A stretch of DNA of 64,000 bases, from contig CAXXOU010000003.1 of the NCBI GenBank assembly GCA_963677495.2, positions 416,001-480,000 of the forward strand, written 5' to 3'. This DNA is from Candidatus Cloacimonadales bacterium (GTDB lineage Bacteria; Cloacimonadota; Cloacimonadia; Cloacimonadales; JAFGVF01). Numbering within the stretch: position 1 is the stretch's first letter; the number at the start of each line of letters is the position of its first letter. Shown in pieces: positions 36,001-42,000 of the stretch. A program made the position numbers.

Positions 36001-39000
36001 GTAGTTGCACCAATAAGGATGATAGCACCTGACTCTACAAATGGTAGAAAGGCATCTTGTTGTGACTTGTTAAATCTATGGATTTCATCAATGAATAGTA
36101 TCGTACTCTTCTTATGTACTTTGAAATGGTAATCAGCTTCCTGCATCACCTGACGCACCTCTTTGATTCCGGAAAGCACAGCACTAAAATAAATAAAGTC
36201 CTGCTCACAGCTCTTCTCTACAAGCTTTGCAATCGTAGTCTTCCCACATCCGGGTGGTCCCCAAAGAATAAATGAGCTGTATTTACCCGTATCAAGCATC
36301 TGCCTGAGTAAAGAACCTGACTCCAGAATCTTGTTCTGACCCTTGATCTCTTCAAGTTCTACAGGACGCATACGCTCAGCCAATGGTACATTTCTATCTA
36401 ATTTTTGTGACATATTCAAACAAAATATGAAAGCATAAAAAAGTCCAGTTTTCTTTCTGTGTGTACTAGTTTCCTCTGCTATAAACCTTTGGATTAACCT
36501 GTCGTCCATCACCACTTTGAAGATCTGCTATCCGAACCTTTGAAATGTTCAAAAACCTTACAAATGTACAAATCTAAGGAAGAAACACCCCACCGTTAAA
36601 ACGGTACCCCTCCAAGAAGGGAATTGTGCTTAGCTCGCAAAACAGACAAGCTGGCAACATCACCTACGAGGTCACCGTTTGCAAGGTTTTCAACCATTCC
36701 AAAGGTGAGTGGCTGGCTTGTTCTACTGATTACTCTTTCCTTCATCTTCCAGCAGTAATTCTTGGTAGACACTTGGTAAACCCTTGGCAAACACTTGGCC
36801 TATTCTTGGCCTAATTGCCAAGATTTAACCAACTTATCACCAGGATAAAACCAATTTTATATCACTAATTACTGCTGAGAGAAGCGATGTGGATAAGAGT
36901 AGTAATGGACAAAAGTCTGAAATCCACAAGCGATTCAAGGGATGACACCTGGTTCTACCAGACTTTTGAACACAAAAGCCCATAAATATCAGTTTGTGAT
37001 GATACATGTCACCCTGAGCGGAGTTCAATGTAGTGAAACGAAATGAACGAAGTCGATAGGGTCGCTCGGATGACTTTAGTGGATTAACGTTCAGAGTATT
37101 GACTTATCTTTAGTTTTAGCTTCAGGGATAAGCTCATCTTAAGCTGGGAGACTAAAGTTTTCGGAGAGGTAAATAGTTGCTCGCCTTCGGCAAGCGAGCT
37201 CCTCCCGATGGTCGTCGGTTCGACTTCATTCGTACCTCATTTCGCTCAAGATGACAGCAGGATACTCGAACTTGTTAAAGCTACGACTTGATAAATCTTC
37301 TCGACAGGTGTTCTCAAAAGAGTCGTGCTTTGTGTTACTTTCACCTAAAAAGATAAATTACTTTACATGAAACAGCTCATAATGATAATAGAATGTTTGC
37401 AAAGAGGTGAATTATGATAATTAAAACTAATATATTGAACCCAATTGATAGAGAGACCTGTGAGTATAAGAGAGATGTTTATCTTACTCTAGCAGGAGGA
37501 AAGATAATATCAATAACAGATAGAATATCCGGTAAATTACCATATCATGACTACAGTGAATTTATATGTCTTCCTGGGATGATCGATTGTCATACTCATC
37601 TTTCACAATGGCGTATTAGAGGACGTTATAAAGATAACCTACTGGAGTGGTTGGATAGTTATGTGTTTCCAGAAGAGGGAAGATCATTTAATCCTGAATT
37701 TGCCAGAAAAACAGCTATAGATTTCTTTAGAAATCTGATATTGAACGGTACTACTACTGCTGCTGTTTATGTCTCAGCCTCTAAACTAGCTACTGAAATT
37801 GCCTTTGAAGAGGGAGTTAAATCAGGACTTAGACTCATCATGGGACAGGTTCAAATGGATAGAAATGCACCAGATTACCTACTACAAGATACAGAAGAAA
37901 GTCTGACTGATGCTGAGGAGCTTTGCCATAAATGGAACCAATTCACACCATTGATGCATTATGCCTTTACTCCTAGATTTGCTATAACATGTACAGGAGA
38001 ACTGATGAGTGGAATTAGTACTCTATCTGAAAAATATCATGCAAGAATTCAAACTCATCTTTCCGAGAATCTTAATGAACTGAAGAAAGTTGAAGAACTG
38101 TTCCCTGACTGTGAGAATTACACAGAAGTGTATGATAAGCATGGTTTGGTTACACCTCGAACTATCTTTGGTCATGCAATCCACTTATATGACTCAGAGG
38201 TTAAACTCTTAGCTGAGAAGGGAGCTAGAATTGCTCATTGTCCTGACTCGAACTTCTTTCTAAACTCAGGTCAATTCAAACTGGATAGGTTACAGAGTGC
38301 AGGTTTAGAGATTGGTCTTGCTTCTGATGTTGCAGCAGGAACTACATTGGACATGTTCTACCATCAGCGAATGATGCTTTATAGACAAAACACAGGGTTG
38401 TTAAGGCTCCCAGAGCTGTTCTATACTGCTACTTTAGGTGGAGCTAGAGCACTTAACCTCGAAGAGGAGACAGGCTCAATAACTGTTGGTAAGTCTGCTG
38501 ATTTAATCTTCATGGATATTAAGAACACAAAGAATGCTGATAGTATTCTTTCGGAGTTAATCTTTATATCACCATATCCATCTGTAAGCAAAGTAATGGT
38601 GGCAGGAAAAGAGGTTACTTAACTCTGATAATCTTACCTGATTGGTTACCTGAATCTGTCTTAATACTGTAGAAATATACACCTGATGGAGATGCACCTA
38701 AAGCTTTCGTATCCAACTTATATTCTCTTTGATTAAGCTCATCACCTTTATAGACTAATCTTCCTTTAATATCATAAATCTCTATTTTTCTGATAAGCTG
38801 ATTCTCAGACTTAACGTACAAGTTTTCAGCAAAAGGCATCGGGTATAGCTGTAGTGATGTTGCCGGTTGTACTTGCTCATCAATAGAAATCGCATTATCG
38901 AACTCAACAGCCCCTATATCTATGAAGTTATCAACTATTCTCTCGTTTCCATGGAAATCTGTTTCAGGAATCATAAGGTACTGAGGATTCAATGTACCTG

Positions 39001-42000
39001 CATTTATAGCTAATGATACTTGATTTGGCATATAGTAGTATTCTTCTTCTCCCAAAAATCCTGTTGAAGCATTAATGTTTGTGCCATCTGCAATCGCCTG
39101 ATTCACAAGGTTGTACTTCGTATAGAAAGGCTTACAGTTAACTAATTGCATATCTTCAATATATGCTGTTGTGTTATTTGTTACAATGTTATTGTAGAGC
39201 AATGGCTTTGAGTGAAAAGCATGTATAGCAGATGTTTTATAGTAAGTATCAGGGTTGATTACTGCATTGTTTGTAATAGTGTTGTTTAAGAGTTTAGGAA
39301 ACGCATAGTCAGCTCTCAAGAATGAGCCACTAACAAGTGCATAATTGTTGTATGCGACGTTGTTAGTAATTCTGACTGCTGATTCTTTAAAACAGGCAAT
39401 AACTGCACCATTACTTGCCAAGTTTTGCGTAAAAGAACAGTTCTCTATTGTTAACTTATTGAAGCTCTCAACATAAAATACACCACCATGCCCGGAATAA
39501 GCTTCACCTTCTATTGCTATATTCTTACTATTTGCAAAGTCACAATACTTGAAACTGGATGCTTCGTTTTGCTCAGAAGTATTATTAAACCTAATACCAT
39601 TCCAAGCAAACTCAGTATTCTCGTCAGGAGTGAAACTGGCACTACTCATGTGGTTGAAGTCAATCCTATTCTCGGGAGTACCTTCTGCAATAATTGCACC
39701 TTGGACATCTATATGATAATGTCCGGTAAACATGATCGTTGCACCCGGCTCTATGATAAGTGTGCTTCCTGATTCTATTGTGAAATCACTATCAATGTAG
39801 TGGATACCACCATCCCATACCGTATCTTCGGTAATGTTATCAATTCTAGCATTAGTTTCTGTTGGCAACACAAATGACTGGCATCCATAATCTGTAGCTG
39901 CGGAGTTCTGCTGATGACTAAAATTACCGTTAAAAGGATCAATAAGTTCAGGATCAAGACCAGAGATATTACTTGCTTCCGTACCGGAACCCGGCCACGG
40001 ATAAGGCTCGAATCAGCCATAATCGCAATACAATGTGAAGTGATATAATGGGTTTTGGTTTATTGCATCCCTAGAGAAGTAGGACCAGTTATCGTAGATT
40101 TGAGATGCAGGATTTGATGTACCTTGATAACTTATAGCAAAATTAGCACCAGTAGTTAAGAATACGTTTTGTTCACTGTTATATTGCAGAAAGTCATCTC
40201 CTGTGTTAACAGCATTAAAGAAGATATTGTTTCTAATTGTAATATCGTTTCCACAAGCTAAGGTTCTAATTGCATAGTCATCATTGTTATAGAAAGTAAC
40301 ATACTCAACTAAACCTGAAGGATATATTTCACTACCCGAGGATGAATTTCCATAAAACCTAAGATTACCATTGATTATAACACAATCCAATATCTCGAAC
40401 TGGATATCTGTATAAGCAATCATGATTCTTTCATGTTGTAAATCAATGACAGCACCATTCCCTATAATTTTAGTATTTACTCCAAAGTCTCCGTAAAAGA
40501 TGTCAGTCTCATTATCGAAAGTTTGCCCGAGATGCAATCCACCATAGTATGTAACACCTTGCTGAAGCACAACAAGTTTATCAAATCCTTCACCGGATCC
40601 GGCTGCATCATATGCCTCTGAAAGACGTATACTATTTAAACTTAAAGCAATTAAAGATATTACGACCAGCATTAGTTTTCTCATAATCACTCCCAAATTG
40701 CAACTTCAATCAGACCACTACTATCAGCTTTTCCTCTAAACATCCCTAATGAGTTATAAGGCATTACAATAGTTCCATTGTTGTCAATGGCTATGAATCC
40801 TCCAGCTCCATCAGGAAGCTCACCAATAGTATAATCAGCAGCATCTTCAAGTCCTAATCCAAGATATGTCATCTTAGCATGAATATCATAAGCAGTACAG
40901 CCGGTCATAAATAGCTCTCCGATTCCTGTGCAAGAAACAGCACATGTTTCATTGTTCGCATAAGTTCCTGCCCCAATAATTGGAGTATCACCGATACGCA
41001 TGAATTTCTTGTTAGTCATTCCACCGGTCGAAGTAGAAGTTGCAAGGTTACCTTTAATATCCAACGCAACAGCACCAACAGTACCGAGTGAGACATTGCT
41101 ATCAGCGGTATGATCAAGAATAATCTTACCTTCTGATTTTGCCTTTAACCAAGCATTATACCGATATTCAGTATCAAAATAGTAGTTCTCTACCTGTTCA
41201 AGTCCGTGTAGACTTGCAAACTTATCTGCTCCATCTCCACATAGTAAAATATGCTCGGATTCTTCCATAACTTTTTTTGCAAGTAGGATAGGATTCTTAG
41301 TAGTTTTCACTCCTGTAACTGCTCCACACTTAAGATTATTACCATCCATAAGCGAAGCATCCAACTCATGTTTTCCATCTGCATTATATACAGCTCCCAC
41401 ACCGGCATTAAATAACGGGTTGTCCTCCATGGACCTTACCGCTTCTATCGTTGCATCCAAAGCTGTACCACCACTTTTCAAAACCAATACACCTGCTTGA
41501 AGAGCTTCAGTTAAGCCAATCTTATAGGATTCTATTCGTTCAGGGTCAGTACTTCTACTGATTACACCGGCACCACCATGTATTGCTATTGCGTATTTAC
41601 TAATCAAACTCATACTCCTCATCGAAATCAAAACGCTTATCAATTTCCTGCTTTGCTGAATGATATGAAAAGCCTTTCCTAATCAAGAATTCAAGACACT
41701 TCTGTTTATGCTTTCGCTTATCTTCAGTTCTATATCGTCTAAAAGCATAATCTGCTTTCTCTTTTAGGTTCTCTGACTCAGCAGAAGCATCATAATACTC
41801 ACTAAGAGCATAGTCAATATATTCAGGACTAATTCCTTTCTCTTTAAGCTTGTATCGAAGCTCTTTTCTACTAAGCTGACTATCTCTTCCTGAGATTACA
41901 AACATCTCAGCAAAGCGTTTGTCATTGAGGAATTTCTTTTCAAGACAGAAATCTATCAGTTGCTTTGAGAACTCATATGATAATGGTAACTCTTTTAGAA

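What a model noticed while it worked through the whole genome (the two positions that open the first line are those of the whole stretch)
38615..40684. Beta-helix T9SS cargo with conserved CDYG-U selenocysteine
g01371 (223 aa) ends in TGA and continues in frame into g01370, giving a 689-aa secreted protein with a choice-of-anchor Q (beta-helix type) region, a T9SS sorting tail and the motif LYCDYG-U-FEPYPW. I read the TGA as selenocysteine in a CxxxU centre of an extracellular protein. If true this is a further unannotated selenoprotein family, in a protein class not known to carry Sec.
Evidence so far: TGA at C3:456013-456015 (- strand); hairpin CCGUGGCCGG-GUU-CCGGUACGG starts 15 nt downstream. 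TGA and motif [LF]CD[YW]G-U-[FV].P..W kept in G106-G109 (same family, other genus), G117, G115, G163, G134, G128, G129; of the 11 matches outside this genome that cover the motif region, 10 have TGA inside and G164 has none; hairpins such as UGGCAGGAUGCCA follow in G107-G109. NCBIfam: only Por_Secre_tail and choice-of-anchor Q near the C-terminus.
(Added by a program. Inside this text positions count along the whole contig: contig position 416,001 is position 1 of the stretch shown here. "Call 12" and the like, gene names such as g00115 and contig names such as C1 are that model's own, and its searches are not shown. The text may have been shortened before it was handed on; [...] marks where a part breaks off. 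The agent that wrote the report below was given it as the finding of a first reader that could run no searches.)

Follow-up and report, generated by a model that had tools for sequence, protein, structure and literature searches.

The report
Secreted beta-helix selenoprotein family
An apparent stop codon inside this gene almost certainly encodes selenocysteine, revealing an uncatalogued family of selenium-containing beta-helix proteins that anaerobic bacteria export to their cell surface.

Summary
Window 38615-40684 (- strand) is one 689-codon frame with a single in-frame TGA at 40013-40015, in the motif LYCDYG-U-FEPYPW. The genome has tRNA-Sec, selA, selB and a Sec-type selD. Among 232 genomes of the phylum, 56 hold the gene. 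TGA stands at this codon in 53 of 54 copies that cover it, and the exception has Cys. In 7 copies the partner Cys codon, four codons upstream, is also TGA. All 56 holders carry Sec machinery, and the 98 genomes of one family have neither selA nor the gene. A hairpin follows the TGA. It shows compensatory changes and biased synonymous codons, and it meets the published bacterial SECIS model in 47 of 54 copies against 13.9% of control positions. More distant metagenomic relatives carry C-P-G-U, or C-G-C in Cys forms, at the same place. No such family is in a 2026 list of 119 selenoprotein families. Sec insertion is untested. No structure could be predicted, so the biochemical role of the Cys/Sec-Sec pair remains inference.

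The parts
38615..40684 (-). Whole gene: 689 codons plus TAA stop (38615-38617), with one in-frame TGA
   Evidence: full-length homology across the TGA in 16 other genomes
40613..40684 (-). N-terminal signal-peptide-like leader, residues 1-24 (MRKLMLVVISLIALSLNSIRLSEA)
   Evidence: Read from the sequence. Equivalent hydrophobic leaders in all 17 aligned orthologues. No signal-peptide predictor was available.
40040..40612 (-). First (N-terminal) small beta-helix module, residues 25-215, including near-invariant Cys101
   Evidence: 24 of 30 orthologous N-domains weakly match Pfam Beta_helix and 22 of 30 match DUF5123. hhalign gives 99.96% to distant Beta_helix/NosD-like relatives.
40025..40027 (-). 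Cys220 codon (TGC), the partner position; it is TGA in 7 of 54 orthologous copies
40013..40015 (-). TGA read as selenocysteine 224
   Evidence: TGA in 53 of 54 copies and TGC in G030
39979..40000 (-). SECIS-like hairpin: 10 pairs with one bulge, loop GUU at 39988-39990, 22 nt between UGA and loop
   Evidence: The window is more stable than 99.4% of 650 in-frame windows of the gene. Covariation in orthologues.
39881..39955 (-). Cap motif of the first beta-helix, residues 244-268 (DPELIDPFNGNF...DYGC), with invariant Cys268
   Evidence: Invariant columns. Matches the C-terminal cap of PDB 9rx2_A 'parallel beta-helix repeat protein' (E 0.0046). It would be non-coding if the TGA were a stop.
39170..39598 (-). 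Second beta-helix module (Pfam Beta_helix match, residues 363-505)
   Evidence: 24.2 bits, cut-off 25.9
38900..39022 (-). Choice-of-anchor Q domain, residues 555-595
   Evidence: NF041518, 26 bits, cut-off 25
38627..38848 (-). T9SS type A C-terminal sorting domain, residues 613-686
   Evidence: PDB CTD matches; SprA and PorU in the genome

Best explanation
This is one gene for a 689-residue exported selenoprotein, not two genes. Inferred from comparative evidence: the UGA at codon 224 is decoded as selenocysteine by SelB and tRNA-Sec, directed by a SECIS hairpin whose stem starts 12 nt after the UGA and whose G-first loop lies 22 nt after it. Inferred from domains: the N-terminal signal peptide takes the protein across the inner membrane, and the C-terminal type A sorting domain hands it to the type IX secretion system, so the selenium site ends up on or outside the cell surface. 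Shown by alignment: Sec224 and Cys220 form a two-chalcogen centre, [C/U]-[DE]-[YWF]-[GAS]-[U/C], at the end of a small N-terminal beta-helix, 19 residues before its cap motif. Inferred, roughly 0.4-0.45 given that it is Sec: this pair is a reactive selenylsulfide (a diselenide in the U-x3-U variants) that attacks or carries extracellular sulfur-, selenium- or thiol-type substrates in a strongly reducing habitat. Metal binding and a purely structural cross-link are the rivals. The gene belongs to a wider, unnamed superfamily of secreted small beta-helix proteins that carry C-x(1-3)-U, or C-x-C in Cys forms, at the same place.
For: Sec machinery: tRNA-Sec scores 57.1 bits (gathering score 47) and ARAGORN calls tRNA-SeC with anticodon tca. 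selB scores 323 bits, selA 534.8 bits, and selD 381.3 bits with its own in-frame TGA in GUGAK.

Conservation: 56 of 232 phylum genomes hold the gene. Of 54 copies that cover the motif, 53 have TGA and one (G030) has TGC. Protein homology at 35-57% identity continues across the TGA to the sorting domain.

Partner position: it is TGA in 7 of 54 copies (G010, G011, G015, G016, G144, G148, G165). Six of these lie scattered on a quick ML tree next to Cys-bearing neighbours.

Context dependence: the G015 orthologue has two in-frame TGAs and also ends at a TGA stop. Long frames in the window end in TAA 26, TAG 11 and TGA 4 times.

Co-occurrence: 51 of 56 holders have selA. The other 5 all have tRNA-Sec over the cut-off, and 4 of those 5 have selB. 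Family f4 has 0 of 98 genomes with selA and 0 of 98 with the gene.

SECIS: two hairpin classes keep the loop 19-22 nt after the UGA in 41 of 54 copies, although the Trp codon inside them sits at +6 or +8.
- Group B (29 sequences): 93.1% of cells paired, 3 of 6 pairs with compensatory changes, 0 of 500 shuffles reach the covariation score, and slid controls pair at 27-48%.
- Group A (25 sequences, including this gene): 88% paired, 2 of 6 pairs compensatory, 1 of 500 shuffles.
- Synonymous bias: Ser AGT in 29 of 29 (15.5% elsewhere), Val GTC in 24 of 24 (10.6% elsewhere), Ala GCC in 19 of 23 (16.3% elsewhere).
- All four criteria of the published bSECIS model (PMC13188914 Fig. 2 legend) are met in 47 of 54 copies, against 373 of 2683 control positions.
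- selD, PrxU and a UxxC gene of the same genome have hairpins at like distances with loops GGG, AGUU and GGUC.

Export: Por_Secre_tail is over its cut-off. SprA scores 431 bits and PorU 615.8 bits in the genome. The only signal peptide lies upstream of the TGA.

Wider family: a profile search of 1.84 billion representatives gave 321 hits at E<=0.001. Many are gene calls that end exactly before one of the two motif positions. Metagenome DNA shows TGA in FCPGUG, FCPSUG, NCPGUG and DPEUG, 19 residues before the cap, with hairpins. In an alignment with 6 Cys forms the Sec column is C or U in 10 of 10. hhalign against the orthologue profile gives 99.96%, E 4.5e-39.

Hints to chemistry: the C-to-U spacing varies (CGC, CPGU, CDYGU). 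Cys101 and Cys268 are both lost in three short forms that keep the pair. One relative is fused to two rhodanese domains.
Against: No experiment shows selenium in this protein, and no RNA run holds the gene.

The hairpin evidence is imperfect:
- The 71-nt stretch around it does not fold better than dinucleotide shuffles (z -0.69; 51 of 200 shuffles as good).
- RNAalifold on the mixed 17-sequence alignment did not recover it (-2.15 kcal/mol, 0 compensatory pairs).
- No Rfam family matched.
- 7 of 54 copies fail the SECIS model, and in 20 of 54 the window is not among the most stable tenth of the gene.
- The stems overlap conserved codons (Trp, Ala), so part of their conservation is protein-level.
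- The structures were derived from these same, related sequences, which inflates the shuffle tests.
- The Cys form G030 still keeps the hairpin.

In the U-x3-U copies one hairpin must serve two UGAs 12 nt apart. The spacing to the first UGA is 30-32 nt in four copies and 38 nt in two, just outside the model's 16-37.

The functional part rests on motif logic alone. No structure could be predicted, gene neighbours are not conserved, and the rhodanese fusion is a single cluster of two members.
Confidence: 0.85

Rival explanations
1. It is a selenoprotein, but the Cys/Sec-Sec pair is a soft-metal site (for example Hg, Cu, Ni or Cd) used to bind, sense or detoxify metals at the cell surface, not a redox or sulfur-transfer centre.
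For: Two closely spaced chalcogen ligands on a loop resemble metal-binding motifs. The 2026 inventory lists metal-binding selenoproteins with UxxU and CU motifs. Haft and Gwadz argue that CU sites exposed to the extracellular milieu (SaoB, SaoC) bind a heavy metal (passages). Distant Cys forms weakly match Pfam NosD, a periplasmic copper-binding beta-helix (32.7 bits, cut-off 23.6, for P0074). There are four conserved Cys/Sec residues in the long forms.
Against: No metal transporter, reductase or regulator sits beside the gene in any of 7 loci examined. The NosD match covers generic beta-helix repeats, and only 1 of 30 orthologous N-domains shows it, at E 0.029. The spacing between the two residues varies from 1 to 3, which is unusual for a fixed coordination geometry. 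Cys101 and Cys268 are dispensable in short forms.
Confidence: 0.2
2. It is a selenoprotein, but the selenylsulfide (or diselenide) is only a structural staple. It would keep an extracellular loop cross-linked in a habitat too reducing for disulfides.
For: The protein is exported from a strict-anaerobe lineage. Seven copies have Sec at both positions, which would allow a diselenide. Diselenides are harder to reduce than disulfides (my own recall, no call). The motif sits at the junction of helix and cap.
Against: A staple across only 1-3 residues stabilises little. Sec is kept in 53 of 54 copies, and the gene is absent from all 98 genomes of the Sec-less family rather than being present there in a Cys form, which points to chemistry that Cys cannot supply. 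The other conserved Cys pair (101/268) stays Cys in all copies seen.
Confidence: 0.15
3. The TGA is a true stop. Either the locus is a broken gene, or it is two genes: a 223-residue secreted N-terminal protein and a separate 418-residue protein starting at GTG 39871.
For: Gene callers split it this way here and in public databases: 14 clusters of 148-235 residues, the only name being 'hypothetical protein'. TGA is used as a stop elsewhere in the window.
Against: The same stop sits at the same codon in 53 of 54 copies across 25 genera, with intact frames on both sides. The 47 codons between the TGA and the first possible start include invariant residues N239, P245, D249 and C268. The downstream piece has a T9SS sorting domain but no signal peptide of its own. 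G030 encodes the whole protein uninterrupted, with Cys at that codon.
Confidence: 0.02
4. The UGA is read through as another residue (Trp, Cys, Gly or Arg) by a changed genetic code or near-cognate suppression, without SelB.
For: Some database gene calls show W at one or both motif positions (P0018, P0029, P0036, P0037).
Against: Those W calls align exactly where sibling calls are truncated, so they are most simply TGA read under table 4 by a gene caller (their DNA was not seen). TGA ends genes in this genome, and it ends the G015 orthologue itself. The only sense codon ever seen in this column in DNA is Cys. The gene occurs only where Sec machinery occurs. A SECIS-type hairpin follows.
Confidence: 0.03

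Closest known systems
Bacterial SelB/SECIS-dependent selenoprotein genes (for example Sec-type SelD and peroxiredoxin PrxU, both present in this genome)
   Same: In-frame UGA. A hairpin just downstream with a G-first loop at a distance of about 17-25 nt. Sec/Cys exchange among homologues. Dependence on selA, selB, selD and tRNA-Sec.
   Different: The protein is not a thioredoxin-fold or molybdopterin enzyme but a right-handed beta-helix. The motif is C-x3-U rather than UxxC, CxxU or TxxU. It matches none of the 119 families of PMC13188914 Table 1 and no NCBIfam selenoprotein model.
Envelope and extracytoplasmic selenoproteins already predicted or shown: TonB-dependent receptor FCYXU type (NF049945), GSU2204 outer-membrane barrel, SaoB/SaoC/SaoX, periplasmic MccSep
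   Same: A signal peptide, with Sec placed outside the cytoplasm. A Cys next to or near Sec. Anaerobic hosts. Typically truncated in databases.
   Different: Different folds and no sequence similarity. None is T9SS cargo, and none is a beta-helix. MccSep uses haem plus Sec (abstract and passages).
Omp28-related selenoprotein / hypothetical protein GOS_C (NF045500, UxxC)
   Same: A T9SS-exported candidate selenoprotein occurs in this same genome: L216, 973 residues, TASTUGFCP, with choice-of-anchor J and Por_Secre_tail. It shows that this lineage exports Sec proteins by the same route.
   Different: That one is a thioredoxin-like UxxC domain near the N-terminus and scores only 40 bits against a cut-off of 200. 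It is not homologous to the beta-helix module.
Two-Sec motifs: UxxU (Prx-like oxidoreductase, metal-binding protein, FmdB family) and UxxxxU (TsoB)
   Same: Two UGA codons a few codons apart in one gene. Cys and Sec interchange at one of the positions (Table 1 of PMC13188914).
   Different: Here the spacing is U-x3-U. It is found in only 7 of 54 copies as a recurrent variant, and in an exported beta-helix.
Right-handed parallel beta-helix proteins (Pfam Beta_helix PF13229, NosD PF05048, DUF5123; PDB 9rx2_A; choice-of-anchor Q NF041518)
   Same: Repeat pattern and the C-terminal cap motif DPxFxDPxxxDFxLxxxSP.
   Different: Matches are weak and generic. No known member of these families is reported with Sec. 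The N-terminal LQEVYDxA...YDKY cap and the C-x(1-3)-[CU] site are specific to this superfamily.

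Membership tests
Bacterial selenoprotein gene (SelB/SECIS decoding) | In-frame UGA conserved at one codon among orthologues, with coding homology on both sides | tested here: met
   53 of 54 copies have TGA. Alignment at 35-57% identity runs across it.
Bacterial selenoprotein gene (SelB/SECIS decoding) | Homologues with Cys in the Sec column | tested here: met
   G030 has TGC (P0017). In distant relatives the column is C or U in 10 of 10, of which 6 are Cys. 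The partner Cys also exchanges with Sec in 7 of 54 copies.
Bacterial selenoprotein gene (SelB/SECIS decoding) | tRNA-Sec, SelA, SelB and SelD in the genome | tested here: met
   all over their cut-offs. All 56 holders have at least tRNA-Sec or selA.
Bacterial selenoprotein gene (SelB/SECIS decoding) | SECIS hairpin fitting the consensus model: loop of 3-9 nt, stem of at least 4 bp, G in the first two loop positions, 16-37 nt from the UGA, MFE <= -7.5 | tested here: met
   G000 has 10 pairs, loop GUU, spacing 22 and MFE -14.2. 47 of 54 copies pass against 373 of 2683 controls. Covariation. Against it.
Bacterial selenoprotein gene (SelB/SECIS decoding) | Selenium demonstrably incorporated at the UGA | not testable with these tools
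   No proteomic or labelling data were available.
Any of the 119 catalogued prokaryotic selenoprotein families | Match to a listed family, domain or motif | tested here: not met
   I read Table 1 of PMC13188914 in full. The terms CxxxU, UxxxU, T9SS, parallel, anchor and sorting each occur 0 times. NCBIfam gives only the sorting tail and choice-of-anchor Q. The BSepDB supplement could not be read.
T9SS cargo (type A C-terminal domain) | C-terminal Por_Secre_tail domain over the cut-off | tested here: met
   PF18962 scores 41.8 (cut-off 27) and TIGR04183 41.7 (cut-off 23).
T9SS cargo (type A C-terminal domain) | N-terminal Sec-type signal peptide | tested here: inconclusive
   A basic then hydrophobic leader is read by eye in G000 and in 16 orthologues. 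No predictor was run.
T9SS cargo (type A C-terminal domain) | T9SS machinery in the same genome | tested here: met
   SprA scores 431.3 bits (cut-off 200) and PorU sortase 615.8 bits (cut-off 420).
Right-handed parallel beta-helix (PF13229) / choice-of-anchor Q (NF041518) | Score over the curated cut-off; beta-helix fold | tested here: inconclusive
   Beta_helix scores 24.2 against 25.9 for the second module. Choice-of-anchor Q scores 26 against 25. 24 of 30 N-domains match Beta_helix weakly. No structure model was obtained.
NosD (PF05048 / TIGR04247) | Score over the cut-off; nos gene context | tested here: not met
   1 of 30 orthologous N-domains matches, at E 0.029. Only distant Cys forms reach 32.7 bits. 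No nos genes lie beside the gene.

The most novel reading that the evidence does not exclude
Anaerobic bacteria of the FCB group may run an extracellular selenoproteome. In this reading, a superfamily of small secreted beta-helix proteins (T9SS- or dockerin-tagged) uses a Cys/Sec-Sec pair (CxU, CxxU, CxxxU, and diselenide-capable UxxxU) as a catalytic centre outside the cell, for example to mobilise or reduce elemental sulfur, polysulfide or selenium. The partner Cys would have been converted to Sec several times under selection in very reducing habitats, with one SECIS hairpin decoding two UGAs 12 nt apart. The same genome exports at least two further candidate selenoproteins by T9SS.
Probability: 0.25. 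Interest if true: 0.8.

Novelty: new variant of a known kind. Interest (0 to 1): 0.62.

Why it matters
Selenoproteins are nearly all intracellular or periplasmic redox enzymes with thioredoxin-like or metal-cofactor folds. A conserved Sec in a beta-helix protein that is handed to the type IX secretion system adds a new fold and a new location, the cell surface or the medium, to the selenoproteome.

It also shows that gene callers systematically cut this family in two. Every public homologue found is truncated, mis-read with W, or unnamed.

The recurrent Cys-to-Sec switch at the partner position, and the two UGAs served by one hairpin, offer a natural test bed for SECIS spacing rules. The gene is present only in Sec-using lineages, and the Sec-less family has no Cys substitute. 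This suggests chemistry that sulfur cannot replace, and it gives a direct handle on what these uncultured syntrophs do outside the cell.

Tried and rejected
The fold of the N-module, the exposure of Sec224 and its distance to Cys101, Cys220 and Cys268 remain open, and no fold search was possible. The protein-atlas look-up did not take this protein.

RNA tests that gave nothing:
- RNAalifold on the mixed 17-sequence alignment gave a different, weak structure.
- The 71-nt fold was not better than shuffles.
- An Rfam E-value scan of 39850-40150 returned only a chance lncRNA hit.

Expression: no RNA holder was listed. The four runs laid are contigs of one sample, possibly the assembly's own source.

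Homology searches that led nowhere:
- The word-index search of residues 1-300 among proteins of 378-1206 residues found only the window's own C-terminal piece.
- The genome-contig scan with the short-form alignment was taken over by the NYPNPFNP sorting-domain pattern and returned only CTD matches. An earlier attempt with a wider alignment had no conserved stretch.
- Searching the phylum with the short-form N-domain found only the long forms, so the DNA behind the 'W' forms was not seen.

Context and earlier work: gene neighbourhood gave no conserved partner in 7 loci. Earlier-findings look-ups by place and by sequence found nothing. The supplement of the BSepDB paper could not be read, and the supplementary tables of the deep-Sep paper were not opened; both might list further families.

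Loss of Sec machinery as the reason for the Cys form in G030 is rejected, because G030 has selA.

Searches failed on a coordinate slip of mine and were repeated correctly.

Full report
**What is in the window.** On the - strand, an ORF of 227 codons from TTG (223 from the ATG at 40684) ends ...HFTLYCDYG at a TGA at 40013-40015. The same frame continues for 465 codons to TAA at 38615. With TGA read as U the product has 689 residues and exactly one U, at position 224. Only two places in the 64-kb window have an in-frame TGA flanked by at least 80 open codons on each side. The other (43340-43342) looks like an ordinary stop followed by the next gene's start.
- Pfam and NCBIfam recognise a T9SS type A sorting domain at 613-686 (41.8 bits, cut-off 27; TIGR04183 41.7, cut-off 23).
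- They also recognise a choice-of-anchor Q domain at 555-595 (26 bits, cut-off 25).
- A Beta_helix match at 363-505 falls just below its threshold (24.2 against 25.9).
- The N-terminus reads as a signal peptide.

**Can this organism make selenoproteins?** Yes.
- tRNA-Sec scores 57.1 bits (gathering score 47), and ARAGORN calls it tRNA-SeC with anticodon tca.
- selB scores 323 bits, selA 534.8 bits, and selD 381.3 bits with its own in-frame TGA in the canonical GUGAK site.
- A Sec-type peroxiredoxin PrxU is also present (NF040737, 408.5 bits, cut-off 270; FTFVUATE).
- TGA is still a stop codon here. Frames of 200 or more codons in the window end in TAA 26, TAG 11 and TGA 4 times; GC is 36%.

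The one named relative is a MAG protein labelled Candidatus Cloacimonetes, 67% identical. I therefore take the host to be a Cloacimonadota bacterium; this is an inference.

**Conservation of the TGA.** A search of 41 related genomes found full-length or near-full-length orthologues at 17 loci, counting G000 itself, at 37-55% identity across the whole length. A search of all 232 held genomes of the phylum with residues 1-290 found the gene in 56. After fetching the remaining loci, 54 gene copies in 53 genomes cover the motif. One genome, G159, has two copies. In G169, G193 and G168 the contig ends before the motif.
- The Sec column is TGA in 53 of 54 copies and TGC (Cys) in G030.
- The motif generalises to [C/U]-[DE]-[YWF]-[GAS]-[U/C].
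- The first position, Cys220 here, is itself TGA in 7 copies: G010, G011, G015, G016, G144, G148 and G165.
- On a quick maximum-likelihood tree, six of these seven sit in separate places next to Cys-bearing neighbours, which needs about six changes. The tree has 51 rows; G151, G165 and G214 were dropped as too short, and the careful search did not finish.
- The G015 orthologue carries two in-frame TGAs and still ends at a TGA stop, so decoding depends on context and is not a code change.
- G030, the Cys form, retains selA.

**Co-occurrence with the Sec trait.** selA is found in 107 of 232 genomes. Of the 56 holders, 51 have selA. The other five are fragmented assemblies: all have tRNA-Sec over the cut-off, and four of the five have selB. 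The largest family, f4, has 0 of 98 genomes with selA and 0 of 98 with this gene. So no Sec-less lineage carries even a Cys version.

**The hairpin.** In G000 the stem begins 12 nt after the UGA. It has 10 pairs with one bulge and a GUU loop that starts 22 nt after the UGA. The orthologues fall into two sequence classes.
- In 25 copies, including G000, the Trp codon at +6 forms the 5' arm, as in UGGCAGG-AUGCCA.
- In 29 copies an extra two codons move the Trp to +8, where it lies in the loop and 3' arm, as in GCGGUC-AGUUG-GGCUGC.
- The loop nevertheless starts 19-22 nt after the UGA in 41 of 54 copies. A positional RNA element would behave this way; a by-product of protein conservation would not.

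Pair counts on ungapped alignments support the hairpin.
- The 29-copy class: 93.1% of cells paired, 3 of 6 pairs with compensatory changes (12 cells), 0 of 500 shuffles reaching the covariation score, and slid controls pairing at 27-48%.
- The 25-copy class: 88% paired, 2 of 6 pairs compensatory (10 cells), 1 of 500 shuffles.

Synonymous sites are biased.
- Ser is AGT in 29 of 29, against 15.5% of 1226 Ser codons elsewhere in the same genes.
- Val is GTC in 24 of 24, against 10.6% of 848.
- Ala is GCC in 19 of 23, against 16.3% of 882.

The 36-nt window after the TGA averages -8.6 kcal/mol, against -3.8 for all in-frame windows of the same genes. In G000 only 0.6% of 650 windows are as stable.

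I also tested the hairpin against the published consensus: loop of 3-9 nt, stem of at least 4 bp, G in the first two loop positions, 16-37 nt spacing, and MFE <= -7.5 (Fig. 2 legend of PMC13188914, read as a passage). 47 of 54 copies pass, against 373 of 2683 (13.9%) other in-frame positions. selD, PrxU and a UxxC gene of the same genome carry hairpins at like distances, with loops GGG, AGUU and GGUC.

**Weaknesses of the RNA evidence.**
- The 71-nt region is not more stable than dinucleotide shuffles (z -0.69).
- RNAalifold on a mixed alignment missed the hairpin.
- Rfam has no match.
- 7 copies fail the model.
- The stems overlap conserved codons.
- The structures were derived from these same, related sequences.
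- The Cys form G030 keeps the hairpin.
- In the U-x3-U copies the same loop lies 30-32 nt from the first UGA in four copies and 38 nt in two. G015, G148 and G016 show an additional proximal hairpin.

**One gene, not two.**
- The 47 codons between the TGA and the first downstream start (GTG 39871) contain invariant residues N239, P245, D249 and C268.
- This stretch matches the C-terminal cap of a solved parallel beta-helix protein, 9rx2_A (E 0.0046).
- The downstream piece has a T9SS sorting domain but no signal peptide. The only leader lies upstream of the TGA, in all 17 aligned orthologues.
- The genome has the T9SS translocon SprA (431 bits) and the sortase PorU (615.8 bits).
- G030 encodes the whole protein uninterrupted.

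**Architecture.** The parts run in this order: signal peptide; a small beta-helix of about six rungs (24 of 30 N-domains weakly match Beta_helix and 22 of 30 match DUF5123); the C-x3-U loop; the cap (DPxLxDPxNGxY...YGC); a second, longer beta-helix with choice-of-anchor Q; and the sorting domain. Four Cys/Sec positions are conserved: 101, 220, 224 and 268. Neighbouring genes differ between genera, so there is no operon partner.

**A wider superfamily.** A profile of 30 N-domains, run against 1.84 billion cluster representatives, gave 321 hits at E<=0.001, 67 at E<=1e-10 and 28 at E<=1e-30.
- Many hits are gene calls that stop exactly before the Sec codon (...LCEYG...FCDEG...LCETG) or before the first motif position (...HFASL...NFVKL).
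- 'Full-length' calls carry W at just those positions (P0018 LWEYGW, P0037 LWATGW, P0029 LCDTGW). I read these as TGA translated under table 4. This is an inference, because their DNA was not seen.
- Short forms consist of one beta-helix module plus the sorting domain.
- More distant members end at ...DCG...WCPG or ...FCPG, while Cys forms read DCGC, WCGC or GCDC.
- In metagenome DNA I saw the TGA directly in FCPGUG, FCPSUG, NCPGUG and DPEUG. Each lies 19 residues before the cap, as in G000, and each has a downstream hairpin. The hairpin in L192 has a 10-bp stem and a GUG loop.
- Three of these metagenome proteins carry a T9SS tail and one a dockerin.
- In an alignment of the four Sec forms with six Cys forms, the Sec column is C or U in 10 of 10.
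- Profile-profile comparison with the orthologues gives 99.96%, E 4.5e-39, over 200 columns.
- None of the ten clusters looked up has any name but 'hypothetical protein'.
- One relative, a cluster of two members, fuses a lipoprotein leader and two rhodanese domains in front of the module.

**How it probably works.** Decoding by SelB at a SECIS hairpin, and export by Sec plus T9SS, are well supported by inference from established systems. For the chemistry I have only motif logic.
- The two chalcogen residues are 1-3 residues apart on what should be a loop at the helix-cap junction.
- The partner flips between Cys and Sec.
- The pair persists when Cys101 and Cys268 are both lost (P0036, P0037, P0072).
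- Sec is almost never replaced.
- The gene is absent where Sec cannot be made.

This fits a self-contained, reactive selenylsulfide or diselenide centre that works outside the cell. The rhodanese fusion, and the recent report of a periplasmic Sec enzyme that reduces polysulfide (MccSep preprint; abstract and passages), make sulfur or selenium mobilisation my leading guess, at about 0.4-0.45. Soft-metal binding comes next at about 0.2 (compare the CU sites of SaoB and SaoC; passages). A structural staple follows at about 0.15.

**Novelty.** I read Table 1 of the 2026 review PMC13188914 in full. It lists 119 families, none of them a beta-helix or T9SS cargo and none with a CxxxU motif.
- deep-Sep (passages) and BSepDB (passages) add nothing of the kind. 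The BSepDB supplement was not readable.
- Searches for selenoprotein with 'type IX secretion', selenoprotein/selenocysteine with 'Por secretion', selenocysteine with 'parallel beta-helix', and selenoprotein with 'beta-helix' gave nothing relevant.
- The only paper linking Cloacimonetes and selenocysteine concerns their unusual tRNA-Sec (one passage).
- Earlier unchecked notes of this scan describe a secreted beta-helix Sec protein with over fifty relatives (e1-358433) and a beta-helix/dockerin one (e1-935166). They probably belong to this superfamily, but look-ups by sequence found no overlap.

**Verdict.** This is a real and very probably translated selenocysteine codon (about 0.93). It sits in a new, exported beta-helix selenoprotein family whose biochemical function is still open.

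Noticed in passing
L215 (G000:C1:84066-85127, + strand; outside the window): A 354-codon frame with a signal peptide and a T9SS sorting tail has one in-frame TGA in GVYCVSUGVTPPG (CxxU). No family is named except Por_Secre_tail. In 41 related genomes, 19 matches outside G000 cover the N-terminal domain: 15 have one TGA and 4 have none. I did not check that the TGA is at the same codon.
   Followed up: partly
L216 (G000:C4:345846-348764, - strand; outside the window): A 973-codon T9SS cargo has an in-frame TGA near the N-terminus (TASTUGFCP, UxxC). It carries choice-of-anchor J and Por_Secre_tail, has a weak match to the Omp28-related selenoprotein model NF045500 (40 bits, cut-off 200), and a hairpin with a GGUC loop. 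Together with L215, this suggests the organism exports several selenoproteins by T9SS.
   Followed up: partly
P0031 (database protein, 528 aa; no DNA seen): A lipoprotein leader and two rhodanese domains (PF00581, 2.5e-22) are fused in front of the same beta-helix module. The gene call ends just before the first motif position, as expected for a U-x3-U form. The cluster has two members.
   Followed up: partly
L192:117-1031 (metagenome contig): A distant Sec form (NCPGUGS) of the small beta-helix module ends in a type I dockerin (PF00404, 3.6e-8) instead of a T9SS tail. It has a 10-bp hairpin with a GUG loop after the TGA.
   Followed up: partly
L036 (G015:C293), orthologue: The orthologue has two in-frame TGAs (LUEYGU) and terminates at a third TGA after ...KLIILK. 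This is a clear case of the same codon being read two ways within one gene.
   Followed up: yes
window 43340-43342 (- strand): This is the only other in-frame TGA in the window with at least 80 open codons on both sides (181 and 347). The context ...[19 protein letters not shown] looks like a normal stop followed by the next gene's start in the same frame.
   Followed up: no
window 37414-38622 (+) and 40687-42241 (-): Neighbours: an amidohydrolase (PF01979, 3.4e-57) converges on the gene, and its last 8 bases overlap the gene's 3' end. Upstream lie an Asparaginase_2 family gene (4.4e-105), starting 3 bases from the selenoprotein's ATG, and recX. None of these is conserved next to the orthologues.
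   Followed up: yes
P0018, P0029, P0036, P0037 (database proteins): These public gene calls show Trp at one or both motif positions, exactly where sibling calls are truncated. They were probably called under genetic code 4, so metagenome pipelines can hide Sec codons as W.
   Followed up: partly
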